Counted from the first letter of the stretch, positions 2,710-20,678 are shown. The stretch is 32,000 bases of DNA from Candidatus Nanosynbacter sp. BB002 (GCF_037013405.1 NZ_CP146064.1:1-32000), one strand, 5' to 3'. Notes: a model not told the origin generated them from the letters alone. Numbers and translations are program-made.

Positions 2710-3438
2710 TTAATAATCACGGAACTTATAACACCATGATGGTCGTCCGTCGCCACATGGTACAGCGGCTCGACTCTCTTTTTCTTTCTTGGTCGGTATG
2801 ATGTAATTATTTACCTTCATATCGTAGTTATCTGGCGTCGCGCCAAGTTTAGCTAATTTCTCTAATATTTGACTCAGGAGAGCTTCGCCATTACGTCCAG
2901 CCATGGTGATACAGATGCCAATTTTATGCGATTTCTTGATATCCGTGCGGTACGGCTGGCAAGAAAATACTCGGTAGTCTCTATCTTCAAACGGCAAATG
3001 TTGTAAGATTGGATTGGCTTTATCGATCTCTTTACCCACCCTATTCACTTCTCGACTACCTAGACCATCTAATACCTTGGCGTATTTTTTCTGTTTCAGT
3101 TCATTTTTTGCCTTGTCGGTTTTTGGCGTCAGGGCGAATAATAATTTTCGCTCCTTCCCTTTTTCTAGATCAAGCTCAACGGTATATGTGTCATAGCCGT
3201 CAGCGCTAAAACTAAAAGTATGTTTACCGCTTTTAACCGCTACGGGCTTGTCAGACTTGATGACCTGATTTTTCACTGAGTCGTACGACATTTTAACAGT
3301 CTCTGGAGCAAAGGTCGCCAGTAATGTAGTATCGTGCGTGACTGTTTGAAATACATAATATGAGATAAGCGCAACAATCAGCGCGCCGATAATCACTGCA
3401 CCGCCAATAATTTTTTGCTTTGTGATGACTGGCTGCAT
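2710..3438 (-). CDS. Membrane-anchored protein with a PEGA-like beta-sandwich segment; last gene of the T4SS-like operon
   Basis: 242-aa ORF with an N-terminal TM (IIGGAVIIGALIVALISYYVF). Segment VKSGKHTFSFSADGYDTYTVELDLEKGKERKLLFALTP resembles the second half of PEGA domains. Cys-containing C-terminal domain. Lies 12 nt downstream of the hydrolase gene. Confidence 0.6.
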   Translation of the reverse strand: MQPVITKQKIIGGAVIIGALIVALISYYVFQTVTHDTTLLATFAPETVKMSYDSVKNQVIKSDKPVAVKSGKHTFSFSADGYDTYTVELDLEKGKERKLLFALTPKTDKAKNELKQKKYAKVLDGLGSREVNRVGKEIDKANPILQHLPFEDRDYRVFSCQPYRTDIKKSHKIGICITMAGRNGEALLSQILEKLAKLGATPDNYDMKVNNYIIPTKKEKESRAAVPCGDGRPSWCYKFRDY

Positions 3439-3450
3439 GATATTTCCTTT

Positions 3451-4683
3451 CTAGGTTTTGTTTGATTGAATGACGCGAACCAAGATATTACCTGGTTGAG
3501 TGAGTTGATAGTCAACAGATCCTTGCTTGATGAATATCGGTACTGTATCTCCAAGGGAGGCATTAGCGGCGACGTAACCTCCACCGACGTCACCAGTGTA
3601 AATTAAAGTATGTCCGTAGCCACCATGGCTTGGGTGGAGGAGGATATCACCTGGCTGCAAGTCTGAAGCAGATGGACGATCGATGATTTTGAATTTTTCT
3701 GGATGAGATTTTACGTAAGTATACTGATCAGTGGTGCCAATTGGCTGGTAATCTTTGTCTGCACCAGAAGTACGCAGCACCGTCGCTACAAATCTACCGC
3801 AGTCAGTGTCTGAACTACCGACGACACTTGGGTTATTCTTTTTGACTGCATCGATATATTCAGCTTTAGCCGTCTGGTTATTAGCCCCTTTGTCAGTATT
3901 TGGATTCCACGCCAACTGCTTGGCTGTATCGACGATGCTCTGCCCGGCGACACTAGACCCATTACCACTACAACCAGTTGCTGATGCTGAACTAATTTGT
4001 GCACCACTCGAATCACCACCGGCGCTTGCCGCGATTTTTGACGGATCGCCGTCTTGGATTTTACCCTTATAGCTGTTGAAAATCTCAGAGGCATACTGGG
4101 CACGGTTACCTTCTTCGCCTGCACCATAGCGCTCAAATGTTTCACCAAACTCAACCGCCAAAGCACTGACACTGCTACCCGATTTGTCAGTGTGTTTAAG
4201 TAGTACTTTCAGACCAGCATTTTCTGCCCCATTCAGCTCCTCCCAGAGGTATTCTAGCTGCCCTTCGATGGTACTGTAATTTGGCTTTTTTTCTAGATTA
4301 GTGCGGCGCCCACCCAGCCACTGCGCGATACCGTATGCACCAATACTGTTGAGGGCGCTCGGATCGATGCGAGATTCCTGCTGGAGGTTACCAGCCACCG
4401 CTGCTGCTTGTACTAACGTTAGACCCTTGCCGGTAAAAAACTTAAGAACTTTTTCTACGTTTTCACCAGAAAGTTCACCAGTCGCAGTATTTTGGGTTGA
4501 GCAGATTTGACCGTTTGGATTGTTGATATTGATGTCATTTAAAATATAGTCTTGGTAAGGAATACCGGCCGGTTGATCCTTCTTCTTTTCTTTATCTTTT
4601 TCTGGCGCTGCTGAGGAGTCGGCGGTCAAAAATATGACACAGCTCACTAAAGCTAGCAATAGACCGATAGTTACTCGTTTCAT
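3451..4683 (-). CDS. Secreted peptidoglycan hydrolase: lysozyme-like (phage-tail-lysozyme type) domain plus NlpC/P60- or CHAP-type cysteine peptidase domain
   Basis: The ORF runs to 4713, but the preferred start is the ATG at 4683 (MKRVTIGLLLALVSCVIF signal peptide, GGAGAG SD upstream, ATGA overlap with the upstream stop). Motif AAAVAGNLQQESRIDP...YGIAQW. C-terminal catalytic-type DCGRFV (Cys) and GYGHTLIY (His). Confidence 0.8.
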   Translation of the reverse strand: MKRVTIGLLLALVSCVIFLTADSSAAPEKDKEKKKDQPAGIPYQDYILNDININNPNGQICSTQNTATGELSGENVEKVLKFFTGKGLTLVQAAAVAGNLQQESRIDPSALNSIGAYGIAQWLGGRRTNLEKKPNYSTIEGQLEYLWEELNGAENAGLKVLLKHTDKSGSSVSALAVEFGETFERYGAGEEGNRAQYASEIFNSYKGKIQDGDPSKIAASAGGDSSGAQISSASATGCSGNGSSVAGQSIVDTAKQLAWNPNTDKGANNQTAKAEYIDAVKKNNPSVVGSSDTDCGRFVATVLRTSGADKDYQPIGTTDQYTYVKSHPEKFKIIDRPSASDLQPGDILLHPSHGGYGHTLIYTGDVGGGYVAANASLGDTVPIFIKQGSVDYQLTQPGNILVRVIQSNKT

Positions 4684-7600
4684 TGTACTCTCCTTGCGTA
4701 GTCCCAGTGCCACGGCTCATCTTTATACCAGCCAGGATTGTTACGGTCTCTTGCCCATGGTGGGTTGACAAAGCCGTATTTTGAGGCATTTGATGCTAGC
4801 CACAGATAAATTGGCGTATTAAAACCTGAACCACCTATATTAATATCTAGGGCTAGTCCATGTCCATGTTTTGATGTTCCTGGAGTTGCTTGTGTTATAC
4901 CGCTTGAGAAGTAATCTTGTTGTGTTGCTAATGTACGGTATGATTCGGTAATTGTCATGTGTTGACCACCATGTTCTTGAGCATAGGCTTCATTCATAGC
5001 ATCGAAAGCTTGAGCGGCCTTTGGATGCATGTAATGTCCTGGTGCAGTTTTCAACTCACTCATGGCTGACAGTGGAATCTCACCGTTTCTGTGTCCACCC
5101 CACGACGCAGGTTCATTTCCAAAAGTCTGTGCTTCTTCTAATTCCGGTGGACCGATAGCGTCGCCGACTGGTCCGCTGCTTGGCTGTTGTGCCCCAGTGT
5201 TGGCTGATGGATCATCAATTTCTTTTGGATAATATTTACCTTCTTTGTCGTCCGCCATCAAGGCCAGGTTGCCAGCTACGGTTAATTCCAAGGCACATGG
5301 ATCGGCCACACTGTACGTCGGGACTAAGTCGCCTTCATGAATCCCATAACTCGCTTCACGCTCTTTGGCTTTGGTTGAACAGACAGCATCGGTGTACTGA
5401 CTTGGGTCGGCTTTATACACTGCTTTGTCAGTAAAACCATGCCAAGTTACACCGAAAGCTCGCATGACGGCTGCTTGGTCATATTTGGCGGCATGCGTGT
5501 TAGTTGGCGTGATGGCAGACGCTAGGGCGACCGGTGCGCGTGCGATTAATCGCATGGTTGAAAAACCGGAAGTTGGCATAACGGCTAGTAACTGTCCAGC
5601 CACCGAACGCTTAAGTGTTGGGTCAAATAACTTCGCCATGAGTGGTTGTTCGCGGAATTCTTCGTCACGCTCTTGCTCGATCTGTTTTGCGAGCACACTG
5701 ACTTGCTGGTTGGTGAGGCGTGCCCCACCGATGCCGTCTGGCTGTTTGGAGCCTGAATCGGCGCCAGCTTGTCCAGCTTCAGTACTACTTTGCATAGTTG
5801 TTGTCAGTCCGCCGTGTAGAGCTTCAAAGTTATTGTTACCCGGCGCGTCAACCCCCACCTCTGGTATACCGAACAGCAAACTCACTGCCCAACCCATGGC
5901 TTTTTCGATCAAGCCTTCAGAGAGTTCAACCAGCTGCTTCAATCCTGGCAATTCCTGTAAATAACTAAAGAACCAGCTAAATACCTTACCGACCGTATCA
6001 CCAACAAAGTCAATGATCGCGCCGAACGTACTATTCCAGGCTTCAGCTATCCCGGCCAACACTTGCCAGACAGGATATTTCGTAAAGGTAGTGTAGTCTT
6101 TGACAATCTTTTTTTCTGGACAGACAAGCTCACCGGGATCTAAGGCAACCACCTTTTCTTCACCACCAACCTCGCACTTGGTGCGAATACCACCGTCCTC
6201 AGCGTAGGCTATTGGGTATAATAATGATGCTGCGGTGTTATTGCCGCCAAATGTTGCCTGAAATATTGGTGCTGCTTCGGCGCCGTCAAATAGCGAGGTT
6301 GCTAACTCAACATGTTGAATATTATCAATTGTTCCCGCCCGAATTTGGTCTCGCGTCAAGACTGGGCTAGCTTCTTCATCATAAGTGAACGCGGTATACA
6401 GCTGCTTCTTTTGGTCAGCTCCGACAATTTCAATAACCTTTTCATTAACTGCTCCAACAATCTTTGCAACCAAATCAATTGCTCCAATGATGGCGTTTGC
6501 AGCCGCTATTTTCTTAAACAGTTGCTTACTGATGATTTTACCTAGCGGTGTGTCTGGTGCTGCTTTGGACAGAGAATCAATATTATTAAGAGCTTCTTTT
6601 TGCCCTTTAATTTTTTTCACCTTTTCATCGGCTTTTGTCTTATTGTCACCTGTCGCTTTTTCAGCTTCTTTTTCTGCTTCGCTAATCTTACTATCGAGGT
6701 CGTTATTTAATTTATCTAACGTGTCTTGGCATTTTTTAGCGTCAGTACCATCCAAACATCCTAAATACGCTGCAAAACGAGGCGACATTTTAGCGGTGAT
6801 ACGTGTATTCATATTTAGCTTAATTTTAGCCTTAAAGTCAGCATATTTTTGACCAGCTTTTTCTGGTATGATGTTAAACTTTTTCACACCGTATTTTCGA
6901 TACAATACACGTTTAGATAGATAGCGCATGAAATAGTTACGTCCGTGAACCTTACGTGTCATCTTTTTTATATGACGACGCATATCTTTGTGAGATAATT
7001 CCTTTTCTACCCCTTGCAGGACAGAGTTCATATCTTTTGACTCAAGATGCATGGTAAATGAGGTCGCTTTACCACCCAGGGTGTTTCTACCACTTGCATT
7101 AAAGACAGCCTTAACGTTTCTTCCTTCTTTTTCAAATTTAGCATCAAGCTGTTCTTCAAACCACGTGCTATATTTTGTAGCTCCCAGGTGACACAAAACA
7201 CCACCGCCAGCACAAAACACGAGATTGGCATCGCCAGGATATGCGGTTTGCATCATTTTCATGGCGACCCAGCGTGTGGTGATATACTCGAGTCGTTGGT
7301 TGATGGCGTGCTGTGGCACAGAGCTGAGCTGGTCGGTGATGGTGGAGACCATGGCATCAAGCTTATATGGCAAAATTGTGAAAAATAACATCATCAGGCC
7401 AAACAACCCTCCACCGATACCGGCTGTGGCACCCCATTTTTTGCGAGTCATATTTGCCAAAAGGTTGCCGCGCTTTTTGTTGCCGGACTTACCCAAAGGA
7501 GACCGAGAGTATAGCTGTTCTTGATTATTAACGCTGTCCGCAGCGTTTAGTCCATCATCTTTCTTGTCGCCATCATAAAAATTATCATTGGCGGCATTAT

Positions 7601-7694
7601 TCTCCATGGAGTTCAGATATTTAGACGTTTGTTCAGAGGCCGGATTGAGCCGTTCATCAACATCTGGATCAGTCGTATAATCAATTCGTGGCAT
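4680..7694 (-). CDS. Large membrane-anchored protein with C-terminal M15 (VanY / D-Ala-D-Ala carboxypeptidase-like, LAS family) zinc peptidase domain
   Basis: 1004-aa ORF. One N-proximal TM (GIGGGLFGLMMLFFTILPY) and a K/E-rich coiled-coil segment. The last ~130 aa carry SKHGHGLALD and EPWHWDY (VanY-type H-x6-D and H-x-H metal ligands). Starts 2 nt after the VirB4 stop. Confidence 0.8.
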   Translation of the reverse strand: MPRIDYTTDPDVDERLNPASEQTSKYLNSMENNAANDNFYDGDKKDDGLNAADSVNNQEQLYSRSPLGKSGNKKRGNLLANMTRKKWGATAGIGGGLFGLMMLFFTILPYKLDAMVSTITDQLSSVPQHAINQRLEYITTRWVAMKMMQTAYPGDANLVFCAGGGVLCHLGATKYSTWFEEQLDAKFEKEGRNVKAVFNASGRNTLGGKATSFTMHLESKDMNSVLQGVEKELSHKDMRRHIKKMTRKVHGRNYFMRYLSKRVLYRKYGVKKFNIIPEKAGQKYADFKAKIKLNMNTRITAKMSPRFAAYLGCLDGTDAKKCQDTLDKLNNDLDSKISEAEKEAEKATGDNKTKADEKVKKIKGQKEALNNIDSLSKAAPDTPLGKIISKQLFKKIAAANAIIGAIDLVAKIVGAVNEKVIEIVGADQKKQLYTAFTYDEEASPVLTRDQIRAGTIDNIQHVELATSLFDGAEAAPIFQATFGGNNTAASLLYPIAYAEDGGIRTKCEVGGEEKVVALDPGELVCPEKKIVKDYTTFTKYPVWQVLAGIAEAWNSTFGAIIDFVGDTVGKVFSWFFSYLQELPGLKQLVELSEGLIEKAMGWAVSLLFGIPEVGVDAPGNNNFEALHGGLTTTMQSSTEAGQAGADSGSKQPDGIGGARLTNQQVSVLAKQIEQERDEEFREQPLMAKLFDPTLKRSVAGQLLAVMPTSGFSTMRLIARAPVALASAITPTNTHAAKYDQAAVMRAFGVTWHGFTDKAVYKADPSQYTDAVCSTKAKEREASYGIHEGDLVPTYSVADPCALELTVAGNLALMADDKEGKYYPKEIDDPSANTGAQQPSSGPVGDAIGPPELEEAQTFGNEPASWGGHRNGEIPLSAMSELKTAPGHYMHPKAAQAFDAMNEAYAQEHGGQHMTITESYRTLATQQDYFSSGITQATPGTSKHGHGLALDINIGGSGFNTPIYLWLASNASKYGFVNPPWARDRNNPGWYKDEPWHWDYARRVQ

Positions 7695-9538: not shown

Positions 9539-10452
9539 TAAAAATCTCCTCCATATGGCGATTCACCATTTCCCTTACGGATGTAAGTCGTCGTCAGATC
9601 ATTTGGGTTGCGGACTAATGGCTGACGTGCTGCAGTGTCAGGATTGTAGGAAATATAGAACAATTCTCCAAGCTGCCTGGTGTTGAGTTGCAAACTCTTC
9701 ACGCCCATGGCAAACAAACCATTCATCACCGTATCGATGCGGTTTTTGATCTCATCTTTTGCTTTTTCGTACATCGGCTGATCAATCCTGGTAATCAACG
9801 TTTCCTTCTTACCACTAAAGAAACTGTCAAACAGACCCTTTGCCTGCTGTTTCATGGCATTAACATCGCCGCCGGGGAAATATGGCACCACGATGAAAAA
9901 TCGCTTATCCATAATGTTTGCCTCTTGCGACAGCACTTCTATGAAGTTCATATAGTCATCCATCAACACATTAAGTAACATATTGTCTTGAGAGCGTCGA
10001 ATACGTGACAATCGATCAAGGTATGGACCGATATCAACACGCTGTGATCGTACTAGGATTTGAACTGGAAAATAGAGCGAGTTGAGTAGGTTTTGATAGC
10101 TAAATTCGATAGCCTCTCGCTCACGAGTACTCATCAAATCAAAGTTGATGGATTGACATTCTATCACTGCTCGAAAACTGCCGTCACTCATGATGATCAT
10201 GTTTTCACGCATTTCTGAAAATAATAACGTATTTTGTGTACTGATGGCGCTCTTTTTGTCTTTAGGAGCTGGTGGATTCTGTGGATTTGGAGCTGGCTGA
10301 CCTGGCTGAGTTATACCAGGCTGCATTGGCAACGCTGGCTGACCAGGTTGTGGCTGTTGTGGCGGTAATGGCTGACTAGGCTGTCCAGAAACGACCGGCG
10401 GTGTCGTCGGGTTGGGTGGTAACTGATATGGTTGTTGATTATCTGGTTGCAT
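9538..10452 (-). CDS. T4SS-associated protein: P/Q-rich N-terminus plus a domain resembling the extreme N-terminal domain of full-length Gram-positive VirB4 ATPases
   Basis: 304-aa ORF. The first ~65 aa are almost only P/Q/G/N. The segment MIIMSDGSFRAVIECQSINFDLMSTREREAIEFSYQNLLNSLYFPVQILVRSQRVD resembles my recollection of VirB4 N-termini. No TM and no NTPase motifs. Translationally coupled to virB4. Confidence 0.5.
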   Translation of the reverse strand: MQPDNQQPYQLPPNPTTPPVVSGQPSQPLPPQQPQPGQPALPMQPGITQPGQPAPNPQNPPAPKDKKSAISTQNTLLFSEMRENMIIMSDGSFRAVIECQSINFDLMSTREREAIEFSYQNLLNSLYFPVQILVRSQRVDIGPYLDRLSRIRRSQDNMLLNVLMDDYMNFIEVLSQEANIMDKRFFIVVPYFPGGDVNAMKQQAKGLFDSFFSGKKETLITRIDQPMYEKAKDEIKNRIDTVMNGLFAMGVKSLQLNTRQLGELFYISYNPDTAARQPLVRNPNDLTTTYIRKGNGESPYGGDF

Positions 10453-13913: not shown

Positions 13914-13975
13914 TTTCAACCACTCCATTACTGTAAATGGTAGCATTTTTTAGCGTAAAAGTCAACTATATGAAT

Positions 13976-16900
13976 CTATCGGCCAAACGCAGTAGGCGGT
14001 CGGTTGCGTCGGTGCTGTGACCGTCCAGTGCCACTGGTGCCACCCTGGTCAATATAGCTCGGTGGAATACTGGTAGCACTCGTCGGATCAGAGGATCTGT
14101 CTACCTGCACAGTAACGTTAACCTGTGGAGCTGGAGCTTGTGTTTGACCACCTGAAGACAATGAATCTGGCTTTGGAGCTTCTACTCCTCGTGCCTGCTC
14201 TTTGATGGCGTAGTAGCGATCAGGAGTCATGCTTGGTGCCTGAGAAGGTGTTGGCTGTGCCACGCCCTGTGGAGCTTGATTTTGCTGCAATGGTGGTACG
14301 GATAATGATTCTGCGGGTATTGATGTTGATAACTTTTTCATTTTAGACGTTGACATTTTTAAGGCCATAGATTCAAAGATATCAGCAGATTCGGCACTAG
14401 CTTGACTGAGATTTCGTGAATTATTTGCGACTTTCTTTGCTTTTTCTACTGTTAATCCACCTTCGTTTATGGCATCAGTAAGAGCGCTTGCACTTTGAGT
14501 AGCAAGTGTTTCGGTGGATAAGCCGCCCACAGACTTGCTTGTCATGGCTGCCAACTCATCACTAGTAACACTATAGCTTTTATTCCCTTCACCTATTGCA
14601 TCAAACCCTGCAACACCGGCTGCGGCTACTCCAGCATCGTACTTCTTTACATTGCCGAGGGCCTTCCCCATCTCGATACTGGTAATTGCTCCGCCGCTTT
14701 CTAGATATTTACGTAATTGTCCTGCGCCCCAGGCGCCCGAGTTGGATAATTCTTCTGCTGCTGCTGCTTGAACGTATTTGTCATCTGACCGTAGAGCTTT
14801 AGCTAAATTACCGTTATATTCAAACCGCAATTTTTTGGCTGCAGCTTCTTGAGATAGTTTATGAATATACTCTTGACCACCAGTAGTAGCTGCCGCAAAC
14901 CCAAGCCGCTTATCCAGTTCACTTCCAGAAGCTTCAGCCAGCCCTTCTCGGTAGCGCTGCTGTTCGCTTTGTTCTGCCAGAGCTGCTCGGGTTTCTCGGT
15001 CGAGTGAACGTTGGTTTATCTTTCTAAAGCCCCGTTGCAGACCACCACTCCAGACACGTCTAGGAGCCTTACTCTTGCTAAAATCTTTCGCCATAAATTC
15101 ACGACGTTTCATACCTGCTCGACGTTTAGCAAACTTACTTCCTGCATTAAGCGCTGGTGCTGATGCCTTGTTCAATAGTCCATTTGCCCGCCCCATCAGG
15201 TTGCCGATGATAGCATTGGATTTCAGTGCCATACCAAGGATGACGAAAGTACCAGCAAATAAAAGTGCCAAAGCCATCAGTTGTTGTACCACTCCGCCGG
15301 TTTTGTCAGCAAGGGCAGTAAAGGCTAATAATTTTAATCCGCCGTAGTATATTGCCGCCAAAGGATAGAGGAAGACCATACCGGTGAAGACTTTTTTCCA
15401 CTTGTCAAAGACACTTTGGGTGTTTGGTAAAATCCAAGCTGCAAATGCCAATGGAGCTAAGATTGCCAGCACCGGTATCACTGCTGATCGAAATACCAAT
15501 GCTAACAACCCTGAGACGATGCCGATCACACCTGGAACGATTGCCATAAGCACAAACATAAACAGGGTTCCAATCCCGAAAACTGAGGCAGCAATTGTTC
15601 CACCAATTAGTGTCGCTCCAGCCGCCGTGCCGCCACCTGCTAAAATTGCTGTCAATAAGGCGCCCCAACCAACATCTTTGTAACTCATATTTTGTATCGG
15701 AGCTGTAATGATTCCTAGCAGAGTACTACCAAGGATGTTTGCGGTATCAACGATGACTTGGATGACAAAGTAGGATATATTCACTGCAACCGCAGCGATG
15801 ATGAAACGAGGTAGCATTTTCTTGATGCCGTAGTTAGAGATACCGACATTTGATACTTGTGAGATAATAATCAAGATAAATACCAGTGCTAACAAGACAT
15901 TAGCAAGGTCTCGCATAGTTTTCCAAGCATCATATGTATTTCCTGTTGCCTGCAAGGGACTTGTAACTAAATATTCTTCTAACATCCCCCAGACCGAGTC
16001 GGCAAAGTCAGCCAGTTTGTCAATAACTGGGCAGATAAACCACCCGATACCCGTTAGTTCACTAGTACACGTTTTTTCCTCTTTTTCTTCTCCTGCCCCC
16101 TCGGTCGACTGTGCTGTAGCGTCAGCGCTTTGCTCCGGAGTATCCCCTACGGAAAGTTCCTTCTGTTCATCTTTATGTTCAGACGCATATTTGGCAAACT
16201 TATCAAAAGCACCCCTGTTGTTTTGGAGCCAAGAACCGATATCGCTACAGCTTACTTCGACTAATCCTCCCTCAGTGTCGTCGGTTGCTGCCAACCAGAC
16301 TTTTTCATTACCCTTGGAAGTCTTATAAATCATGTCGGCGGTTTTGCCACCTGTACTGGTAAATGGAATTTTGTAGTAATAATACCCCGAGCTATCTGGA
16401 TTTTCTTTAGGGATTTCCTTGAGAGATTTATCACCGCTAGCAGAACAACCGCTAGCAGAACTAGTAAATGTTTTTGAATACATATACCATTGTTCGGCGC
16501 TGCCTGAAGCTATAGAAGGTAGGCTGCCGGTGGCATTTTTGATACCGTCTTTGAAACGTTCTTTAATGGCCGCGCCACCCTTTTTTGGTGCACAACCACC
16601 CGGAGGATTTTCGTCAGGAGCTAAATTACTACTAGAATAGTAAACAGTGTATGAAGTAAAATAATTTGGTTTTGATACACTCCGTAAGTCGTTAACATTT
16701 TGTGTAAAACGACCCCAGGAATTCCATTCATACTTTTTACATCTTTCCCAATTTCGAAATACCCAGCCAGCTTTGGTTTGATCAATAAAAAATTTACCAC
16801 CCATATGCCGGTAGAAGTCAGCATATTTAGAAGAGCCCTCCCAAATATCAATCCCCGCTTTTAGGAGGCTAGCACAGCTGAGATCTCCACCGATTTGTTT

Positions 16901-17230
16901 TGTGATGGGGTCGACGCCTGAGTAGGATTTAATACCGCCTTTAGTATTTTTTCCCACAAAGGTATTTGCACGCTCCTCATTATCACCGTTAGATGGCGCC
17001 CAGTTAGAGTCGGTGCTTGTCGTGTTTCTATACCGCATCCCCTCGAAATCGGTCATACATGTCCAATCGTTGGTGCCACGCTTCATTAAATTAGCGTAAA
17101 GTAGTGTTGATTCAACTTTTTGCTTTAACTTCAAACTTTTTGCAGCTTCTGCCTGCGGAGCAAGTAACACCGCTGATATAAGTGCCACTACTAGTGTGGA
17201 GAGTACTATCAACCCTCGCTTTTTACTCAT
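13976..17230 (-). CDS. VirB6/TrbL-like polytopic membrane protein, paralog 1, with a large Cys-containing extracellular N-domain and a P/Q-rich C-terminus
   Basis: The ORF extends to 17263. The start at 17230 (MSKKRGLIVLSTLVVALISAVLLAPQAEA signal peptide) is preferred. After a ~390-aa exported domain come TGIGWFICPV and DLANVLLALVFILIIISQVSNVGISNYGIKKMLPRFIIAAVAVNISYF, which are clearly paralogous to 11415-13913. Long C-terminal tail. Confidence 0.7.
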   Translation of the reverse strand: MSKKRGLIVLSTLVVALISAVLLAPQAEAAKSLKLKQKVESTLLYANLMKRGTNDWTCMTDFEGMRYRNTTSTDSNWAPSNGDNEERANTFVGKNTKGGIKSYSGVDPITKQIGGDLSCASLLKAGIDIWEGSSKYADFYRHMGGKFFIDQTKAGWVFRNWERCKKYEWNSWGRFTQNVNDLRSVSKPNYFTSYTVYYSSSNLAPDENPPGGCAPKKGGAAIKERFKDGIKNATGSLPSIASGSAEQWYMYSKTFTSSASGCSASGDKSLKEIPKENPDSSGYYYYKIPFTSTGGKTADMIYKTSKGNEKVWLAATDDTEGGLVEVSCSDIGSWLQNNRGAFDKFAKYASEHKDEQKELSVGDTPEQSADATAQSTEGAGEEKEEKTCTSELTGIGWFICPVIDKLADFADSVWGMLEEYLVTSPLQATGNTYDAWKTMRDLANVLLALVFILIIISQVSNVGISNYGIKKMLPRFIIAAVAVNISYFVIQVIVDTANILGSTLLGIITAPIQNMSYKDVGWGALLTAILAGGGTAAGATLIGGTIAASVFGIGTLFMFVLMAIVPGVIGIVSGLLALVFRSAVIPVLAILAPLAFAAWILPNTQSVFDKWKKVFTGMVFLYPLAAIYYGGLKLLAFTALADKTGGVVQQLMALALLFAGTFVILGMALKSNAIIGNLMGRANGLLNKASAPALNAGSKFAKRRAGMKRREFMAKDFSKSKAPRRVWSGGLQRGFRKINQRSLDRETRAALAEQSEQQRYREGLAEASGSELDKRLGFAAATTGGQEYIHKLSQEAAAKKLRFEYNGNLAKALRSDDKYVQAAAAEELSNSGAWGAGQLRKYLESGGAITSIEMGKALGNVKKYDAGVAAAGVAGFDAIGEGNKSYSVTSDELAAMTSKSVGGLSTETLATQSASALTDAINEGGLTVEKAKKVANNSRNLSQASAESADIFESMALKMSTSKMKKLSTSIPAESLSVPPLQQNQAPQGVAQPTPSQAPSMTPDRYYAIKEQARGVEAPKPDSLSSGGQTQAPAPQVNVTVQVDRSSDPTSATSIPPSYIDQGGTSGTGRSQHRRNRPPTAFGR

Positions 17231-17254
17231 GTTTTGATGCCCTTTCAGAAAAAA

Positions 17255-17283
17255 CATATACACTACAAATTGTAGTGTATATG
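17255..17283 (-). terminator. Perfect 29-bp palindrome (14-bp arms) followed by T6 on the minus strand: terminator of the lipoprotein gene and/or operator in front of the VirB6-like genes
   Basis: Sequence is CATATACACTACAA-A-TTGTAGTGTATATG. On the minus strand it is followed by TTTTTTCTG. It lies between the stop at 17315 and the start at 17230. Confidence 0.55.
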
Positions 17284-17314
17284 TCTCAAAAGCGCAAATG
17301 CTTAGAAAGTCGGC

Positions 17315-18370
17315 TTACGCTTTACCTTCTTCACGCAATTTTGAATACGGAACATTTTCTTTACGACTAAACTCTAGCTCGCTAATAACAACAGTACCAG
17401 GGCCGATTTTCTTAAATGTAACATTACCCTGCATACCGCCAACTCCAGCTGTTAGTACCCATTCCACAGGCATCGTACCAACGCTATTATTAGCAAGGAA
17501 ATCAGTAATTTTCTCAGAATGCTGGGCGCCATTATCTGGTCGGAATGAGAAAGTCATAGAAATAGTATCACCATCGTATTTTGGCTCACCATGTTCCATT
17601 CCTGCAATAGTGACAGGCCCCAATATCATTTCTGGGTCTATTGGGTTCGTATAGGCCGTCCTGTGAAGACCATTCTCATCATTTTCAAGGTGAGTGCTGT
17701 AATCGATCCGTAATGCTTCTTGTGCATCTATAAGATTTTCCAAGAGACTCTTGAAACCATTCCCGTACTTAATTGGTTGTGATTTTCCACGTGCGTCATT
17801 GCCTGGAGTTTCAAAAACTCCTTTTATGCGATTGAGGATATATGGGGTTAGTGTTGATCCGAAAGTAGGAGGTGTGCTGTTTGCAGAACGATCTTTCTGT
17901 GCCAAATAACTGAACCTTTTTTCGTCATATACCCTACTATATTCAGATGACGGTGGATTTTCCTGATCTTTTTTATCAGCAACTACGTTAACTGTTGTTT
18001 CAATTATAGTACTCAGGTGTCGCATTAATTCGTCGGGGCTTTCGAAAGCACTAACGGGAATGGTTAATTTCTTAGCCTCTTCTTCAGGGAATCTTGTGTC
18101 TACATACGATTCGCAAAGCTCTACCTCTGTTGAAGGATCTAGGTCCAGTGTACGCATCCCTTCAGGAGTTGGAGACACTTCTGGTGAAGGACTGTTCTCT
18201 GCATGCTCAGGCAGTTGTCCTGATGTTTGTTCTGATGTAGTTTCTTTCTTACTACCGCAGGCTGTTAAAGCCATCGCTCCAGCACTGGTCACAAAAAGAC
18301 CCAGGACCCCTCGGCGGTTTATTTCATATACTGATGTTTCTTGTGAATCGCTTGGGTTATACTCTTTCAT
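17315..18370 (-). CDS. Putative Tat-type lipoprotein of unknown function, first gene of the minus-strand T4SS-like cluster
   Basis: 351-aa ORF. N-terminus EINRRGVLGLFVTSAGAMALTACGSKKE has a twin-arginine-like motif, an h-region and an L-T-A-C lipobox. I do not recognise any family in the remainder. Confidence 0.7.
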   Translation of the reverse strand: MKEYNPSDSQETSVYEINRRGVLGLFVTSAGAMALTACGSKKETTSEQTSGQLPEHAENSPSPEVSPTPEGMRTLDLDPSTEVELCESYVDTRFPEEEAKKLTIPVSAFESPDELMRHLSTIIETTVNVVADKKDQENPPSSEYSRVYDEKRFSYLAQKDRSANSTPPTFGSTLTPYILNRIKGVFETPGNDARGKSQPIKYGNGFKSLLENLIDAQEALRIDYSTHLENDENGLHRTAYTNPIDPEMILGPVTIAGMEHGEPKYDGDTISMTFSFRPDNGAQHSEKITDFLANNSVGTMPVEWVLTAGVGGMQGNVTFKKIGPGTVVISELEFSRKENVPYSKLREEGKA

Positions 18371-18441
18371 AACGCTTGGGATTCTTTCTCTGGTTTACTA
18401 CCAGGTTAGTTACACACTATATCTACAATCGATATGGCGTG

Positions 18442-18450: not shown

Positions 18451-18484
18451 CAAAGTATATGAAAATACAAGACTATAGATCAGC

Positions 18485-18513
18485 AAAATAAAAACACCCT
18501 GTTGCTTGGGTGT
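18485..18513 (-). terminator. Rho-independent terminator after tRNA-Asp
   Basis: Minus-strand hairpin ACACCC-AAGCAACA-GGGTGT followed by TTTTTATTTT. Confidence 0.7.
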
Positions 18514-18516
18514 CTG

Positions 18517-18594
18517 TGGCGCGCCCGACCGGATTCGAACCGGCGATCTCCTCCGTGACAGGGAGGCGTGATGGACCAACTTCACTACGAGCGC
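18517..18594 (-). tRNA. tRNA-Asp (anticodon GTC), CCA encoded
   Basis: Reverse complement is GCGCTCGTAGTGAAGTTGGTCCATCACGCCTCCCTGTCACGGAGGAGATCGCCGGTTCGAATCCGGTCGGGCGCGCCA. It folds as a cloverleaf with anticodon loop CTGTCAC and T-loop GGTTCGAATCC. Confidence 0.93.
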
Positions 18595-18660
18595 ATGTCA
18601 ACTAGCTCGATAATACCAAAGACTTCCCTAATATTCAAGAGCCATCAGGTGAAATGTTGT

Positions 18661-18689
18661 TTGCATTTTGCGTGACAATATCTTACAAT
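18661..18689 (+). promoter_or_regulatory. Sigma70-type promoter of the pilin operon (TTGCAT-17 nt-TACAAT)
   Basis: -35 TTGCAT at 18661-18666, 17-nt spacer, -10 TACAAT at 18684-18689. Lies about 38 nt upstream of the ATG at 18727. Confidence 0.5.
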
Positions 18690-18726
18690 TAGTCACATAT
18701 CAACCTAATATTGGTAGAACAATTCA

Positions 18727-19116
18727 ATGATAAACAGAAATTTCTTTACAAAAACCATCATTGCTGTAGCCCTACTAGTCGGTTTTACTGTTTCAGCTCC
18801 GGTATTTGCTGAGGAGGAGGGTGCGAAGAAATGTGCTGGCGTCGATACTTCAACCATAGAATGTGGCGGTAAAAGCGGTAAAGAGGCTATCTTTGATATC
18901 GTTAAACAGGCGGTAAAAATTTTAACCATGGGTGTAGGTGTCACAGCTGTTGGTGCGGTAGTTTATGGTGGCATATTATTTTCATCATCTGGAGATAAGC
19001 CAGAAAATATCAAAAAAGCTCGCGAGATCTGGATCAATGTTGTGATAGGGTTGCTGCTATACGCCTTCTTTGTCACGCTGACTCAATTCTTAATTCCAGG
19101 AGGAGTATTCTCATGA
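18727..19116 (+). CDS. VirB2/TrbC-like T4SS pilin paralog P1
   Basis: 129 aa. Signal peptide (AVALLVGFTVSAPVFA), variable region with two Cys (KKCAGVDTSTIECGG), TM1, loop YGGILFSSSGDKPENIKKAREIW, TM2. Stop overlaps the P2 start (ATGA). Confidence 0.7.
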   Translation: MINRNFFTKTIIAVALLVGFTVSAPVFAEEEGAKKCAGVDTSTIECGGKSGKEAIFDIVKQAVKILTMGVGVTAVGAVVYGGILFSSSGDKPENIKKAREIWINVVIGLLLYAFFVTLTQFLIPGGVFS

Positions 19117-19538
19117 TCAAACGGGCAATTATAGCAGTTACTTTGGTGTTTATAGGTAGCTTTGGTATGGCATTTGTCAGCACACAACCTGCCTTAGCTG
19201 GTGCTTGTGATGAACGTGGTCGTGTTATAACTCTAAAACCTTGGTTTTATAACTTAACATCTGGTAATTCGTGTGATTTAAAGAGTCCGAGTGAGGCTGG
19301 TGGTTTTGGCCCATACATCTGGCAAATTGCCTTAAACCTTATTGAAGATTTATTCCAAATCACGGGTTATATTGCAGCAGGATACATTATATACGGTGGT
19401 TTTCTGTTCATCACCAGCTCAGGATCACCAGATCGAGCGGTTCGTGGACGAAAAACAGTTTTTAATGCCATTATTGGCTTAGTTATAGCTATCGCCTCAG
19501 TAGGTGTAGTAAACTGGGTATCAGGAGCATTATTGTAA
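19113..19538 (+). CDS. VirB2/TrbC-like T4SS pilin paralog P2
   Basis: 141 aa. Signal peptide ending PALA-GA, two Cys (GACDERG...GNSCDLK), TM1, loop YGGFLFITSSGSPDRAVRGRKTVFNAIIG, TM2. Confidence 0.7.
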   Translation: MIKRAIIAVTLVFIGSFGMAFVSTQPALAGACDERGRVITLKPWFYNLTSGNSCDLKSPSEAGGFGPYIWQIALNLIEDLFQITGYIAAGYIIYGGFLFITSSGSPDRAVRGRKTVFNAIIGLVIAIASVGVVNWVSGALL

Positions 19539-19540
19539 CT

Positions 19541-19837
19541 ATGGAAAAGTTTATCGTTCAAATTGTTAGCCAACTAGGTTCCCCAAGTGACGTAGGAATT
19601 CCTGATCGTAAAGATGATAAGGTGGCATTACAAAGTATAGCGAACCTGGTGTTTGCTATCTCAGCGGTCGTAGCTATCATTTCCATCATCATCTATGGCA
19701 TCATGTATAGTGTATCCGCTGGTGATCCAGGCAAAGTCTCGAAAGCTAAAAACGGTATCATCTATTCGGTGGTTGGTTTGCTGGTGGTATGGTGCGCTTT
19801 TGTTATTACAAATTATGTCGCAGGGAGGTTTAACTAA
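19541..19837 (+). CDS. VirB2/TrbC-like pilin paralog P3, without a recognisable signal peptide
   Basis: 98 aa. Only the two-TM core with loop YGIMYSVSAGDPGKVSKAKNGIIYSVVG. The N-terminus MEKFIVQIVSQLGSPSDVGIPDRKDD is not signal-like. Starts 2 nt after P2, and its stop overlaps the P4 start (TAATG). Confidence 0.6.
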   Translation: MEKFIVQIVSQLGSPSDVGIPDRKDDKVALQSIANLVFAISAVVAIISIIIYGIMYSVSAGDPGKVSKAKNGIIYSVVGLLVVWCAFVITNYVAGRFN

Positions 19838-20211
19838 TGAAAAAAATCGTAACTATTACCGCTACTCTGGCTCTCGCCATAGTCGGTGGTTTTTTGCTGT
19901 CACAAACTGCTTCAGCGGTTGGTATTTATGACGCGTGTAGTACCGATCCAAATAACATTGTCTGTGCTAACAGTAGTGAATCAGTTGACCCGGTCATCAA
20001 AACAGTCATCAGATATCTGCTGATTATCTCTGGTATTGTATCAGTTGTGATGGTTATCATTGGTGGGTTGAAATACAGCACCTCCAATGGCGACAGTGCT
20101 AAGCTAAGCTCTGCTAAGAACACTATCATGTACGCCATCATTGGCGTGATCATCTCTGCTCTTGCGTATGCTATCGTTGATTACGTATTTCTTCGCATAA
20201 TTGGTAAATAG
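19837..20211 (+). CDS. VirB2/TrbC-like T4SS pilin paralog P4
   Basis: 124 aa. Signal peptide ending TASA, two Cys (DACSTDPNNIVCAN), TM1, loop GGLKYSTSNGDSAKLSSAKNTIMYAIIG, TM2. Confidence 0.75.
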   Translation: MKKIVTITATLALAIVGGFLLSQTASAVGIYDACSTDPNNIVCANSSESVDPVIKTVIRYLLIISGIVSVVMVIIGGLKYSTSNGDSAKLSSAKNTIMYAIIGVIISALAYAIVDYVFLRIIGK

Positions 20212-20243
20212 AGCCCAACACAGTATAGACAGACCGTAAAATA

Positions 20244-20252
20244 TGGTATAAT
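20244..20252 (+). promoter_or_regulatory. Extended -10 promoter (TGgTATAAT) for pilin paralog P5
   Basis: Sequence is aaatatGGTATAATgaag, about 45 nt upstream of the ATG at 20298. SD AAGGAAAGGAA lies in the leader. Confidence 0.55.
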
Positions 20253-20297
20253 GAAGTAAAATAACAATCAATTTCCCAAGGAAAGGAAACGAAATTC

Positions 20298-20678
20298 ATG
20301 AAAAAAACCATTATTAAAATAGCTGGCGCGTTTGCCCTTCCTGTGCTGGTTATGGGTGTCGTATTTTTGGCTTCTGGCGACAATGCATTTGCGCAGGTTC
20401 GAGAAGGTTTGAACAAGGTTCAAAACGCCAATACTGGTGCTAGTGCTAACGTTGACGACATCATCTCAAAGTCAATTAACTTTGCATTGATGGCGATTGC
20501 TATCGTATCTGTGTTTATGTTGATCCTTGGTGGTTTCAAATACACCACATCAAACGGTGACAGTGCTAAGGTGACGTCTGCTAAGAATACCATTATGTAC
20601 TCCTTGATCGGTCTGTTGATTGCTATCTTTGCCTACGCTATCGTTAACTTTGTGGTCAATAAGGTTACCGGTAACTAA
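20298..20678 (+). CDS. VirB2/TrbC-like T4SS pilin paralog P5 (own promoter, SD and terminator)
   Basis: 126 aa. Signal peptide ending NAFA, no Cys, TM1, loop GGFKYTTSNGDSAKVTSAKNTIMYSLIG, TM2. Confidence 0.8.
   Translation: MKKTIIKIAGAFALPVLVMGVVFLASGDNAFAQVREGLNKVQNANTGASANVDDIISKSINFALMAIAIVSVFMLILGGFKYTTSNGDSAKVTSAKNTIMYSLIGLLIAIFAYAIVNFVVNKVTGN

What the first reader, a model, noticed from the sequence alone, without database searches (positions are those of the whole stretch)
2710..20678. Origin-proximal, relaxase-less, Gram-positive-type T4SS-like apparatus encoded as core chromosome
Seen in sequence: about 18 kb beside dnaA/dnaN encode a coherent secretion-type gene set. It comprises six VirB2/TrbC-like pilins, a PrgI (VirB3-like) protein, a VirB4 ATPase with Walker A/B motifs, and two VirB6-like polytopic proteins. 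It also includes hydrolases with M15, lysozyme-like and Cys/His peptidase domains, a lipoprotein and a PEGA-like membrane protein. Most genes are translationally coupled (ATGA and TAATG overlaps). Not seen anywhere in the window: VirD4/TcpA-type coupling ATPase, relaxase, VirB11, integrase, oriT-like repeat, or att duplications at the neighbouring tRNAs. Established knowledge: VirB4 plus VirB3, VirB6, VirB8-like proteins and a wall hydrolase form the minimal Gram-positive conjugation channel, and DNA transfer additionally requires a relaxase and a coupling protein. Inference: this is a domesticated, non-conjugative T4SS-derived machine. In a reduced epibiont (Saccharibacteria-like) it could mediate host contact, effector delivery or uptake from the host cell. 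Its substrate and function are unknown.
Basis: partly seen in the sequence, partly recalled or inferred. Interest (0 to 1): 0.85.

Follow-up and report, generated by a model that had tools for sequence, protein, structure and literature searches.

The report
Known Saccharibacteria chromosomal type IV secretion locus

Summary
The gene set is real and sits where the finding says. The window matches Candidatus Nanosynbacter sp. BB002, a Saccharibacterium. Convergent with dnaN lies a minus-strand operon. It encodes a PEGA-like membrane protein, a lysozyme with a weak papain-like peptidase domain, and a membrane-anchored M15/VanY peptidase. It also encodes a split VirB4 (TrsD/TraC-like N-domain protein plus ATPase), PrgI/VirB3 and two paralogous extended VirB6-like proteins. 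A Tat-like lipoprotein with an NTF2-like fold lies upstream, and five VirB2-type pilin genes diverge from the operon. The sixth pilin lies outside the stated range, at 23819-24289.

No relaxase, coupling protein, VirB11, integrase or att repeat occurs in the window or in the 10 kb upstream of dnaA. Across 48 species genomes, VirB4 identity tracks DnaA identity and exceeds it in 47. The operon is convergent with dnaN in all 57 loci where dnaN was detected, so it is vertically inherited core chromosome.

All of this is published: McLean 2020 (TM7x), Wang 2023 (essential in Tn-seq) and Quinonero-Coronel 2025 (phylum-wide, relaxase-less, dnaA-proximal).

The parts
1..2708 (+). Context: dnaA (1-1353) and dnaN (1608-2708). 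Three DnaA-box-like 9-mers lie in the dnaA-dnaN spacer at 1454-1497.
   Evidence: ORFs. DnaA boxes. The exact DnaA sequence equals WP_338520828.1 of Ca. Nanosynbacter sp. BB002. rnpA, yidC and jag lie upstream.
2710..3438 (-). 242-aa protein with one N-terminal TM helix and a weak PEGA/CarboxypepD_reg-like beta-sandwich. It is the last gene of the operon and is convergent with dnaN.
   Evidence: PEGA 14.3 bits, below the 20.8 cut-off. TM helix at residues 10-28. It occupies the same position as the PEGA-domain protein SEML1_0005 in S. epibionticum.
3451..4683 (-). Secreted wall hydrolase with an N-terminal signal/TM segment, a phage-tail-type lysozyme domain and a C-terminal papain-like (CHAP/NlpC-P60/ELLD-like) domain. 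The likely start is the ATG at 4683, an ATGA overlap with the upstream stop. The mechanical ORF runs to 4713.
   Evidence: Phage_lysozyme2 E=4.8e-25. phi29 gp13 in PDB at E=0.004. C-terminal domain: ELLD 0.007, CHAP 0.023, NLPC_P60 0.04, all sub-threshold. Junction sequence. Gene callers give 410 aa.
4680..7694 (-). 1004-aa membrane-anchored protein. About 880 residues carry no annotation and the C-terminus is an M15 VanY-type D-Ala-D-Ala (DD/LD) carboxypeptidase domain.
   Evidence: VanY E=1.5e-14 at residues 887-1000. TM helix at 90-108. No Pfam family for residues 1-880. Same position as the DD-peptidase SEML1_0007.
7697..9538 (-). VirB4 ATPase (C-terminal, motor part), 613 aa.
   Evidence: NCBIfam conju_CD1110 E=6.9e-115, 385 bits against a cut-off of 325, matching profile positions 162-751. 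P-loop_TraG, AAA_10 and DUF87. Walker A and B motifs. Median 85% identity across 80 species loci.
9538..10452 (-). TrsD/TraC-like protein, the detached N-terminal domain of VirB4, preceded by a 65-residue Pro/Gln-rich segment. Its stop overlaps the VirB4 start (TAATG).
   Evidence: Weak matches to the N-terminal parts of three VirB4 models and to TrsD (E 1e-4 to 3e-3). Precomputed PF26593 TraC-like. Composition P 35%, Q 22%. TrsD is the most abundant patescibacterial T4SS component.
10460..11389 (-). PrgI (VirB3-like) membrane protein with an extension of about 220 residues predicted to be cytoplasmic.
   Evidence: PrgI E=6.6e-10, 39.8 bits against 27. TM helix at 25-43.
11415..13946 (-). Extended VirB6-like polytopic protein 1 (843 aa). 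It has a signal/TM segment, an ectodomain of about 120 residues, a GWFICP motif, about six TM helices and a C-terminal domain of about 400 residues.
   Evidence: Paralogue of the next gene (E=9e-42). TrbL E=0.011. Relative P0050 scores TrbL 27.9 bits against 25.9. AF2 model mean pLDDT 80.7. Foldseek PDB ranks 1-5 are all R388 TrwI/VirB6, best E=0.019, TM 0.23-0.34.
13976..17230 (-). Extended VirB6-like polytopic protein 2 (about 1084 aa from the ATG at 17230; the mechanical ORF runs to 17263). Its ectodomain is about 370 residues and the membrane core is the same as in protein 1.
   Evidence: No Pfam match of its own. Same position and size as SEML1_0013, which matched a protein named 'TrbL/VirB6' by structure search.
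17249..17284 (-). Perfect hairpin with 14-bp arms followed by a U-run, between the lipoprotein gene and the first VirB6-like gene. It may be a terminator of the lipoprotein gene or an operator.
   Evidence: Minimum free energy -23.6 kcal/mol, z-score -8.0, 0 of 200 shuffles as good. Sequence.
17315..18370 (-). 351-aa probable Tat-type lipoprotein (RR...LTAC) with an NTF2-like C-terminal fold. It is a candidate VirB8-like accessory protein and membership of the machine is uncertain.
   Evidence: N-terminal sequence. AF2 mean pLDDT 80.0. Top Foldseek PDB matches are almost all NTF2-like, SnoaL or ketosteroid-isomerase folds (E about 0.05, probability up to 0.99), with no VirB8, TraM or TcpC hit. 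The family is narrow, 28 clusters. Found in only 4 of 80 loci.
18517..18594 (-). Context: tRNA-Asp in the divergent intergenic region between the two operons.
   Evidence: No partial tRNA duplication or att repeat.
18727..19116 (+). VirB2-type pilin 1
   Evidence: T4SS_pilin E=3.4e-8. Signal peptide plus two hydrophobic helices. Promoter-like site at 18660-18689.
19113..19538 (+). VirB2-type pilin 2 (ATGA overlap with pilin 1)
   Evidence: T4SS_pilin E=1.6e-7. Junction.
19541..19837 (+). VirB2-type pilin 3 (98 aa, no obvious N-terminal signal peptide)
   Evidence: T4SS_pilin E=9.2e-13. Hydrophobic segments.
19837..20211 (+). VirB2-type pilin 4 (TAATG overlap with pilin 3)
   Evidence: T4SS_pilin E=3.6e-10. 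51% identical to pilin 5.
20298..20678 (+). VirB2-type pilin 5
   Evidence: T4SS_pilin E=1.6e-10. A 148-nt DNA repeat shared with pilin 4 at 74% identity.
23819..24289 (-). Sixth VirB2-type pilin, outside the finding's coordinates. Hsp20, comFC, rlmH and two tRNA genes (tRNA-Ser, tRNA-Arg) separate it from the array.
   Evidence: T4SS_pilin E=5e-7, 30.1 bits against 26.6. 48% identical to pilin 5 and 40% to pilin 4.

Best explanation
Identity (near certain). This is the Candidatus Nanosynbacter sp. BB002 copy of the chromosomal, vertically inherited patescibacterial type IV secretion system. That system is a relative of monoderm (MPF-FATA) conjugation machines, carries a VirB2-type pilin array, and was shown to be essential for epibiotic growth in Southlakia epibionticum.

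Mechanism (inferred from homology).
1. A VirB4 hexameric ATPase, here built from a separate TrsD/TraC-like N-domain protein and the 613-aa motor, docks on a membrane platform made of PrgI/VirB3 and two paralogous extended VirB6 proteins.
2. The lysozyme/papain-like hydrolase and the membrane-anchored M15 peptidase open peptidoglycan, certainly the epibiont's own and possibly also the host's.
3. As VirB4 does in canonical systems, the motor extracts Sec-inserted VirB2-type pilins (six paralogues) from the membrane and polymerises them into an extracellular filament or tube at the epibiont-host interface.
4. No relaxase or coupling protein is associated with the locus, so the machine does not conjugate. 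I take its essential output to be this pilus-type structure, which contacts or breaches the host envelope and probably serves as a conduit. The cargo and its direction are not established.

Shown here: gene content, homologies, conservation and synteny. Shown in the literature: essentiality. Inferred: pilus assembly, the role of the hydrolases, and the conduit function.
For: - Component homologies are above curated cut-offs for VirB4, PrgI, six pilins, the lysozyme and VanY.
- VirB4 is split, with complementary profile coverage in the two ORFs.
- The two VirB6-like proteins are paralogues, and fold and family evidence points to VirB6.
- The organism is Nanosynbacter sp. BB002.
- The gene order matches SEML1_0005-0021 of S. 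epibionticum one for one. It differs only in the lipoprotein's position, the fifth-plus-one pilin arrangement and the missing recF. In S. epibionticum all of these genes except the NTF2-like one and comFC are essential in Tn-seq.
- Vertical inheritance: VirB4 is 81-100% identical in the 80 best loci, VirB4 identity correlates with DnaA identity (rho 0.77, p=1e-10), and it exceeds DnaA identity in 47 of 48 genomes. The operon is convergent with dnaN in all 57 loci where dnaN was detected.
- Conservation falls from cytoplasmic to surface parts: VirB4 85%, TrsD 60%, PrgI 45%, VirB6-like 38% and 32%, lysozyme 29% (medians). This fits a machine whose outer parts co-evolve with hosts.
- No relaxase, T4CP, VirB11, integrase or att repeat in the 42 kb examined.
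- Published phylum-wide analysis agrees: MPF-FATA-related VirB4 clade, TrsD, PrgI, VirB6, pilin arrays of 2-11 genes, relaxase absent, dnaA proximity.
- The FEMS review states the potential to elaborate conjugative pili.
- From established knowledge of Agrobacterium VirB, not tested here: pilus biogenesis needs VirB4 but not VirD4.
Against: - No T4SS pilus has been demonstrated in Saccharibacteria. Cryo-ET of the congeneric N. lyticus showed two pilus types. Of these, the authors judged the thick pilus unlikely to be a T4SS pilus, on size and flexibility.
- No VirB5-like tip protein and no confident VirB8 were found. The NTF2-like lipoprotein gave no direct VirB8 or TraM match, and its counterpart in S. 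epibionticum is non-essential.
- VirB6 assignment rests on sub-threshold sequence scores and low TM-scores.
- McLean 2020 read the small-protein array as secreted cargo, analogous to Ptx, rather than as pilins.
- A T4CP homologue may exist elsewhere in the genome. That could not be checked here.
Confidence: 0.8

Rival explanations
1. Protein-effector exporter. The machine injects or releases epibiont proteins into the host without a coupling protein, as in Bordetella Ptl or Brucella VirB. The pilin-like array acts either as the channel or as the cargo itself.
For: T4CP-less secretion systems exist (FEMS review). Wang 2023 suggests the system 'may instead export proteins'. McLean 2020 compared the array with ptx/ptl. 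The array proteins carry signal peptides.
Against: No candidate effector gene lies in or beside the locus. All six array proteins pass the T4SS_pilin cut-off, so they are pilins rather than toxin subunits. Two-step, Sec-dependent export of the Ptl type presupposes a periplasm, which a monoderm lacks (inference).
Confidence: 0.3
2. Feeding conduit. The T4SS tube works inward and carries host cytoplasmic material (RNA, nucleotides or other macromolecules) into the epibiont.
For: Saccharibacteria lack de novo nucleotide, amino-acid and lipid synthesis, and the T4SS is essential only in the context of growth on a host. A 2026 preprint reports host RNA uptake by another patescibacterium, with tubular structures 'that may be T4SS pili' penetrating the host envelope. 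Phage-tail-type lysozyme and peptidases could breach the host wall.
Against: No link between the T4SS and uptake has been shown; the preprint itself calls the mechanism unresolved. That organism (OT8) was not shown here to be a Saccharibacterium. Inward transport through a VirB-type T4SS is known only for DNA (ComB, Ced), from my own knowledge. A comEC deletion does not affect viability, so DNA uptake is not the essential role.
Confidence: 0.2
3. Ordinary integrative conjugative element, or a decaying remnant of one, inserted near the origin.
For: VirB4 is closest to conjugative ATPases of the CD1110 family. tRNA genes lie nearby.
Against: No integrase, relaxase, T4CP or att repeats. GC content matches the flanks. 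The position is fixed in all 57 loci where dnaN was detected, VirB4 is more conserved than DnaA, and its divergence tracks DnaA divergence. The genes are essential in S. epibionticum.
Confidence: 0.02
4. DNA-uptake or competence apparatus, suggested by the adjacent comFC gene and weak similarity of the ATPase to CedB/CedD.
For: A ComFC-like gene lies at 21329-22012. CedB E=1.4e-12 and CedD E=3.3e-6 partial matches. The comF/T4SS association is noted in class ABY1.
Against: The Ced matches are P-loop-only and far below cut-off (47 bits against 700). In S. epibionticum comFC is non-essential while the T4SS is essential. Competence depends on T4P and ComEC, and a comEC deletion leaves viability intact.
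Confidence: 0.05

Closest known systems
Southlakia epibionticum ML1 T4SS, SEML1_0006-0019 (Wang et al. 2023, Cell; PMC10633639)
   Same: It has the same place (directly after dnaA/dnaN), the same strand arrangement and the same order: PEGA protein, lysozyme + Cys peptidase, DD-peptidase, VirB4 (1839 nt against 1842 nt here), a protein of about 290-300 aa, PrgI, two VirB6-like proteins of about 1000 aa, divergent pilin array, Hsp20, ComFC, tRNA-Ser. Neither has a relaxase or T4CP in the locus.
   Different: ML1 has recF after dnaN, six pilins in one array (five plus one remote here), a second lysozyme domain, and its Tat/NTF2-like protein between the two VirB6-like genes rather than upstream of both.
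Nanosynbacter lyticus TM7x T4SS region with its 'Sec-secreted array' (McLean et al. 2020, Cell Rep; PMC7427843)
   Same: Same genus. The region holds VirB4, VirB6 and PrgI homologues plus an array of four to six small signal-peptide proteins, and is conserved across Saccharibacteria.
   Different: That paper interpreted the array by analogy with pertussis toxin subunits. Here all six proteins pass the T4SS_pilin model, in line with the later literature.
Patescibacteria VirB4 clade / MPF-FATA-related T4SS (Quinonero-Coronel et al. 2025, Microb Genom; PMC12102498)
   Same: TrsD next to VirB4, PrgI, VirB6, VirB2 arrays, non-VirB1 hydrolases downstream of virB4, no relaxase, dnaA/dnaN proximity.
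   Different: Nothing of substance. Two quantitative points were not found in the parts of that paper read here: VirB4 is more conserved than DnaA, and conservation falls from cytoplasmic to surface components.
Monoderm conjugative T4SSs (pCF10 Prg/Pcf, pIP501 Tra, pGO1 Trs, CTn2 CD1110 family)
   Same: VirB4 (best model CD1110), PrgI/VirB3, a TrsD-like protein as in pGO1, VirB6-like polytopic protein(s), and multi-domain wall hydrolases combining a glycosidase and a Cys peptidase.
   Different: These are mobile and carry a relaxase, T4CP and oriT. They lack VirB2 pilins and use adhesins instead. They are not essential to their bearer.
Coupling-protein-less effector T4SSs (Bordetella Ptl, Brucella VirB)
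   Same: They are chromosomal, non-conjugative, work without VirD4 and include VirB2-type pilin genes.
   Different: They are diderm systems with VirB7/9/10 core complexes and VirB11, with known protein cargo, and belong to a different VirB4 lineage (MPF-T).

Membership tests
Type IV secretion system (VirB4-based; MPF-FATA-related) | VirB4-family ATPase with intact Walker A and B motifs | tested here: met
   conju_CD1110 scores 385 bits against a cut-off of 325. Motifs lie at residues 261 and 475.
Type IV secretion system (VirB4-based; MPF-FATA-related) | VirB3/PrgI-type small membrane partner next to VirB4 | tested here: met
   PrgI scores 39.8 bits against 27. The gene lies two genes upstream of VirB4.
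Type IV secretion system (VirB4-based; MPF-FATA-related) | VirB6-type polytopic membrane protein | tested here: inconclusive
   TrbL at E=0.011 is below the cut-off for the 843-aa protein, and the 1095-aa protein has no match. Relative P0050 passes with 27.9 bits against 25.9. The top five PDB folds are all TrwI/VirB6 but with TM-scores of 0.23-0.34. A PDB profile search found nothing.
Type IV secretion system (VirB4-based; MPF-FATA-related) | VirB8-like (NTF2-fold) bitopic protein | tested here: inconclusive
   The 351-aa lipoprotein model has an NTF2-like fold, but no VirB8, TraM or TcpC match was found. The family is narrow and is present in only 4 of 80 loci.
Type IV secretion system (VirB4-based; MPF-FATA-related) | Peptidoglycan hydrolase encoded in the locus | tested here: met
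   Phage_lysozyme2 at E=4.8e-25 and VanY at E=1.5e-14.
Conjugative element (ICE or plasmid-derived) | Relaxase and type IV coupling protein (VirD4/TcpA) | tested here: not met
   None was found among the window ORFs scanned or among the precomputed Pfam hits for genes in the 10 kb upstream of dnaA. The rest of the roughly 804-kb genome could not be scanned with these tools.
Conjugative element (ICE or plasmid-derived) | Integrase and att direct repeats at the boundaries, often at a tRNA gene | tested here: not met
   No integrase was found. The only tRNA-related repeats are the tRNA-Ser genes themselves.
Patescibacterial chromosomal T4SS (Wang 2023; Quinonero-Coronel 2025) | Patescibacterial host and a chromosomal position near dnaA/dnaN that is conserved across species | tested here: met
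   The organism is Nanosynbacter sp. BB002. dnaN is convergent with the operon 5-9 kb from VirB4 in all 57 loci where dnaN was detected.
Patescibacterial chromosomal T4SS (Wang 2023; Quinonero-Coronel 2025) | TrsD-like protein adjacent to VirB4 | tested here: met
   TrsD E=7e-4 and matches to the N-terminal parts of VirB4 models. Precomputed PF26593 TraC-like. The individual scores are weak, but the coverage is complementary to that of the 613-aa ORF.
Patescibacterial chromosomal T4SS (Wang 2023; Quinonero-Coronel 2025) | Array of divergent VirB2-type pilin genes beside the apparatus genes | tested here: met
   Five tandem genes plus one remote gene all pass PF18895. Pairwise identity is 22-51%.
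Patescibacterial chromosomal T4SS (Wang 2023; Quinonero-Coronel 2025) | Essential for growth on the host bacterium | not testable with these tools
   Shown by Tn-seq for S. epibionticum ML1 only. Not tested for BB002.
PEGA domain family (PF08308) | Score above the Pfam gathering threshold | tested here: not met
   The 242-aa protein scores 14.3 bits against 20.8. The ML1 protein at the same position is annotated as PEGA.

The most novel reading that the evidence does not exclude
The machine is a reverse-acting or bidirectional 'feeding tube'. A VirB2-type tube, built by a coupling-protein-less T4SS and inserted through the host wall by its phage-tail-type lysozyme and peptidases, would carry host cytoplasmic macromolecules such as RNA into the epibiont. 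The large cytoplasmic domains of the two extended VirB6 paralogues would replace the coupling protein as gate or receptor. My evidence does not exclude this. It is already hinted at in the literature, so it would be a mechanistic discovery rather than a discovery made by this scan.
Probability: 0.2. Interest if true: 0.85.

Novelty: already known. Interest (0 to 1): 0.22.

Why it matters
The system itself matters. It is described as the first T4SS shown to be essential to the bacterium that carries it, and as unique among monoderm T4SSs in its potential to elaborate a conjugative-type pilus. It is also conserved across a phylum that makes up a large share of uncultivated bacteria, and its substrate may hold the key to how these epibionts live off their hosts.

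This particular finding adds no new kind of object. The locus, its lack of a relaxase, its pilin array and its dnaA proximity are all published. Its modest value is twofold. It confirms that the locus is intact in a named strain (BB002). It also adds a few quantitative points: VirB4 is more conserved than DnaA, conservation falls steeply from cytoplasmic to surface components, and the GC-skew pattern around the locus is odd.

Tried and rejected
- A PDB sequence-profile search with the VirB6-like family alignment found only spurious ATP synthase b hits.
- A PDB phmmer search with the C-terminal domain of the lysozyme protein found nothing useful.
- Pfam at E up to 10 gave no family for residues 1-880 of the 1004-aa protein, the TrsD-like ORF, the 165-aa ORF or the 118-aa ORF.
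- The repeat search found no att-like or oriT-like repeats flanking the locus or the tRNA genes.
- Rfam found only tRNAs.
- The DnaA-box search found no cluster near the skew minimum at 18.8 kb.
- The ICE hypothesis was rejected on content, synteny and conservation.
- The competence hypothesis was rejected because the Ced matches are P-loop-only and because of published genetics.
- A whole-genome scan of BB002 for T4CP and relaxase was not possible.

Full report
**What is in the sequence**

The window opens with dnaA (1-1353) and dnaN (1608-2708) on the plus strand. One base after the dnaN stop, a minus-strand gene string ends. Read 5' to 3' on the minus strand, it runs as follows.

- 17315-18370: a 351-aa protein with a twin-arginine plus lipobox N-terminus (RRGVLGLFVTSAGAMALTAC).
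- 13976-17263: a 1095-aa polytopic protein.
- 11415-13946: an 843-aa polytopic protein.
- 10460-11389: a 309-aa PrgI protein.
- 9538-10452: a 304-aa protein.
- 7697-9538: the 613-aa VirB4.
- 4680-7694: a 1004-aa protein with a C-terminal VanY domain.
- 3451-4713: a 420-aa lysozyme protein.
- 2710-3438: a 242-aa single-pass membrane protein.

tRNA-Asp (18517-18594, minus strand) sits in the divergent intergenic region. Five small plus-strand genes follow at 18727-20678.

**Profile searches**

These matches exceed curated cut-offs:

- All five small proteins match T4SS_pilin (31.7-48.5 bits against 26.6).
- PrgI scores 39.8 bits against 27.
- VirB4 scores 385 bits against 325 for NCBIfam conju_CD1110.
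- Phage_lysozyme2 scores 88.8 bits and VanY 54.4 bits.
- Walker A (AKSGAGKS, residue 261) and Walker B (MLIVDE, residue 475) are intact.

The weaker points are these:

- PEGA is sub-threshold, at 14.3 bits against 20.8.
- The C-terminal domain of the lysozyme protein gives only sub-threshold hits to three papain-like families: ELLD 0.007, CHAP 0.023 and NLPC_P60 0.04.

**Refinements to the anatomy**

1. VirB4 is split.
   - The 613-aa ORF aligns to CD1110 profile positions 162-751.
   - The upstream 304-aa ORF, whose stop overlaps the VirB4 start (TAATG), matches the N-terminal stretches of three VirB4 models and the TrsD model.
   - A precomputed Pfam hit calls it 'TraC-like'.
   - It begins with a 65-residue segment that is 35% Pro and 22% Gln.
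2. The 843-aa and 1095-aa proteins are paralogues.
   - They share a membrane core of about 330 residues (27% identity, E=9e-42), with about six TM helices each.
   - The 843-aa core scores TrbL at E=0.011. A relative with 40% identity (P0050) passes the TrbL cut-off.
   - An AlphaFold model of the core has mean pLDDT 80.7. Its five best matches among 350,542 PDB chains are all TrwI/VirB6 of plasmid R388, but E is only 0.019-0.48 and TM-scores are 0.23-0.34.
   - I regard 'VirB6-like' as probable, not proven.
3. The 351-aa lipoprotein models well outside its disordered N-terminus (mean pLDDT 80.0).
   - Its top fold matches are almost all NTF2-like proteins. That is the fold class of VirB8, TraM and TcpC, but none of those appeared.
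   - Its family is narrow (28 clusters).
   - A strong hairpin plus U-run separates it from the next gene (-23.6 kcal/mol, z-score -8).
   - Its membership of the machine is uncertain.
4. Start codons. The lysozyme gene probably starts at 4683 (ATGA overlap; gene callers give 410 aa). The 1095-aa gene probably starts at 17230.
5. Four of 12 junctions overlap and eight are at most 12 nt apart. The genes are tightly packed, but 'most translationally coupled' overstates it.

**What is absent**

- No relaxase, VirD4/TcpA, VirB11 or integrase domain appears in any window ORF scanned.
- The rest of the window encodes Hsp20, ComFC, RlmH, tRNAs, ValRS, TsaD, two Mur ligases and GroES.
- The 10 kb upstream of dnaA, recovered from metagenome contigs of the same species, holds rnpA, yidC, jag, an ABC transporter and glycosyltransferases.
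- No att-like direct repeats flank the locus or the tRNAs.
- GC content does not differ from the flanks.

**Origin and evolutionary status**

- The DnaA and VirB4 sequences are identical to WP_338520828.1 and WP_338520833.1 of Candidatus Nanosynbacter sp. BB002.
- A scan of one genome per species returned at least 571 stretches encoding VirB4 relatives. The 80 best are 81-100% identical, and almost all are labelled Saccharibacteria, Saccharimonadales or unnamed bacteria.
- Median identities to the window proteins in those 80 loci are: VirB4 85%, DnaA 70%, DnaN 63%, TrsD-like 60%, PrgI 45%, VirB6-like 38% and 32%, pilins 40-46%, lysozyme 29%.
- VirB4 identity correlates with DnaA identity (Spearman rho 0.77, p=1e-10, n=48) and exceeds it in 47 of 48 genomes.
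- dnaN is convergent with the VirB4 operon, 5-9 kb away, in all 57 loci where dnaN was detected.
- This is the signature of an anciently fixed, vertically inherited, strongly constrained core locus whose exposed parts evolve fast. It is not the signature of a mobile element.

**Comparison with what is known**

The locus has been described repeatedly.

- McLean et al. 2020 reported it in the congeneric N. lyticus TM7x. They found VirB4, VirB6, PrgI and an array of four to six signal-peptide proteins, conserved across Saccharibacteria.
- Wang et al. 2023 defined SEML1_0006-0019 of S. epibionticum as 'an apparent T4SS'.
  - They said it resembles Gram-positive conjugative systems, has essential pilins and lacks a recognisable coupling protein or relaxase.
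  - Their tables give the same gene order as the window, from the PEGA protein through the hydrolases, VirB4, PrgI, the two VirB6-like proteins and the pilins to tRNA-Ser.
  - All are essential except the NTF2-like protein and ComFC.
- Quinonero-Coronel et al. 2025 generalised this to the phylum.
  - They described a distinct VirB4 clade related to MPF-FATA, TrsD as the commonest partner, PrgI, VirB6 and pilin arrays of 2-11 genes.
  - They also reported relaxases that are almost absent, T4CP homologues that are mostly distant, and proximity to dnaA/dnaN with a proposed gene-dosage effect.
- A 2025 review lists these systems as unique among monoderm T4SSs.

Every element of the finding's title is therefore already in print.

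**Mechanism**

What follows is inference from homology. The split VirB4 motor sits on a PrgI/VirB6 platform. The wall hydrolases open peptidoglycan. VirB4 extracts the Sec-inserted pilins from the membrane and polymerises them. From established knowledge of Agrobacterium VirB, VirB4 is required for pilus biogenesis and VirD4 is not. A system that has VirB4 and pilins but no coupling protein is therefore best read as a pilus-building machine first.

Whether the resulting structure only adheres, exports proteins or imports host material is open. Points bearing on this:

- A 2026 preprint reports host-RNA uptake in another patescibacterium, with tubular structures that may be T4SS pili, and calls the mechanism unresolved.
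- Against a long pilus: cryo-ET of N. lyticus showed two filament types. Of these, the authors judged the thick one unlikely to be a T4SS pilus.
- DNA uptake is unlikely to be the essential role, because a comEC deletion is viable.

**Verdict**

The novelty is 'already known', and the interest for this scan is low. The open question of cargo and direction remains interesting, but it is already recognised in the field.

Noticed in passing
window 1-32000, plus L081 1-10000 (the 10 kb upstream of dnaA): GC skew stays negative from 10 kb upstream of dnaA, across dnaA, to about 18.8 kb. It then turns positive and reaches +0.2 by 28-32 kb. The cumulative minimum is at 18800, in the first pilin gene just past the T4SS/pilin divergent junction. 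Third-codon-position skew per gene places the step at about 20.7-25 kb. DnaA-box clusters lie at rnpA-dnaA and dnaA-dnaN, and none lies near 18.5 kb. Either the strand switch (oriC) is about 19-24 kb from dnaA, or the 16-kb operon is head-on to replication and compositionally atypical. Only 42 kb was seen, so this is not a global minimum.
   Followed up: partly
window 17249-17284 (minus strand): A perfect palindrome with 14-bp arms (ACAUAUACACUACA.../...UGUAGUGUAUAUGU) is followed by a U-run, between the lipoprotein gene and the first VirB6-like gene. Minimum free energy is -23.6 kcal/mol and the z-score is -8. It could be a terminator that makes the lipoprotein gene a separate transcription unit, or an operator overlapping the operon promoter.
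   Followed up: partly
window 23289-24289 (minus strand): The sixth pilin (23819-24289) lies 3.1 kb from the array. Downstream of it is a 165-aa protein with two TM helices and no family match (23289-23786). Pilins 4, 5 and 6 are the closest paralogues, at 40-51% identity.
   Followed up: partly
L001-L080 compared with window 7697-9538: The VirB4 motor is more conserved than DnaA in 47 of 48 species genomes (median 85% against 70%). Conservation falls steeply towards the surface-exposed components.
   Followed up: yes
window 10258-10452 (residues 1-65 of the TrsD-like protein): A Pro/Gln-rich low-complexity N-terminal extension (35% P, 22% Q) sits on the detached VirB4 N-domain protein. The PrgI protein and the 1095-aa protein also carry Q/P/S-rich tails.
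   Followed up: no
window 21329-22012 (plus strand): A ComFC-like gene (double zinc ribbon plus phosphoribosyltransferase domain) lies two genes from the pilin array, as in S. epibionticum, where it is non-essential.
   Followed up: no
window 22009-22605 (minus strand): The mechanical RlmH ORF runs across tRNA-Ser (22516-22604). The SPOUT domain starts at residue 49, so the true start is probably near 22460.
   Followed up: no
L039 (JAQBNP010000297.1, 3.6-kb contig): A contig filed in a 'Flaviaesturariibacter sp.' (Bacteroidota) MAG encodes a VirB4 84% identical to this Saccharibacteria protein. This is most likely a binning contaminant.
   Followed up: no
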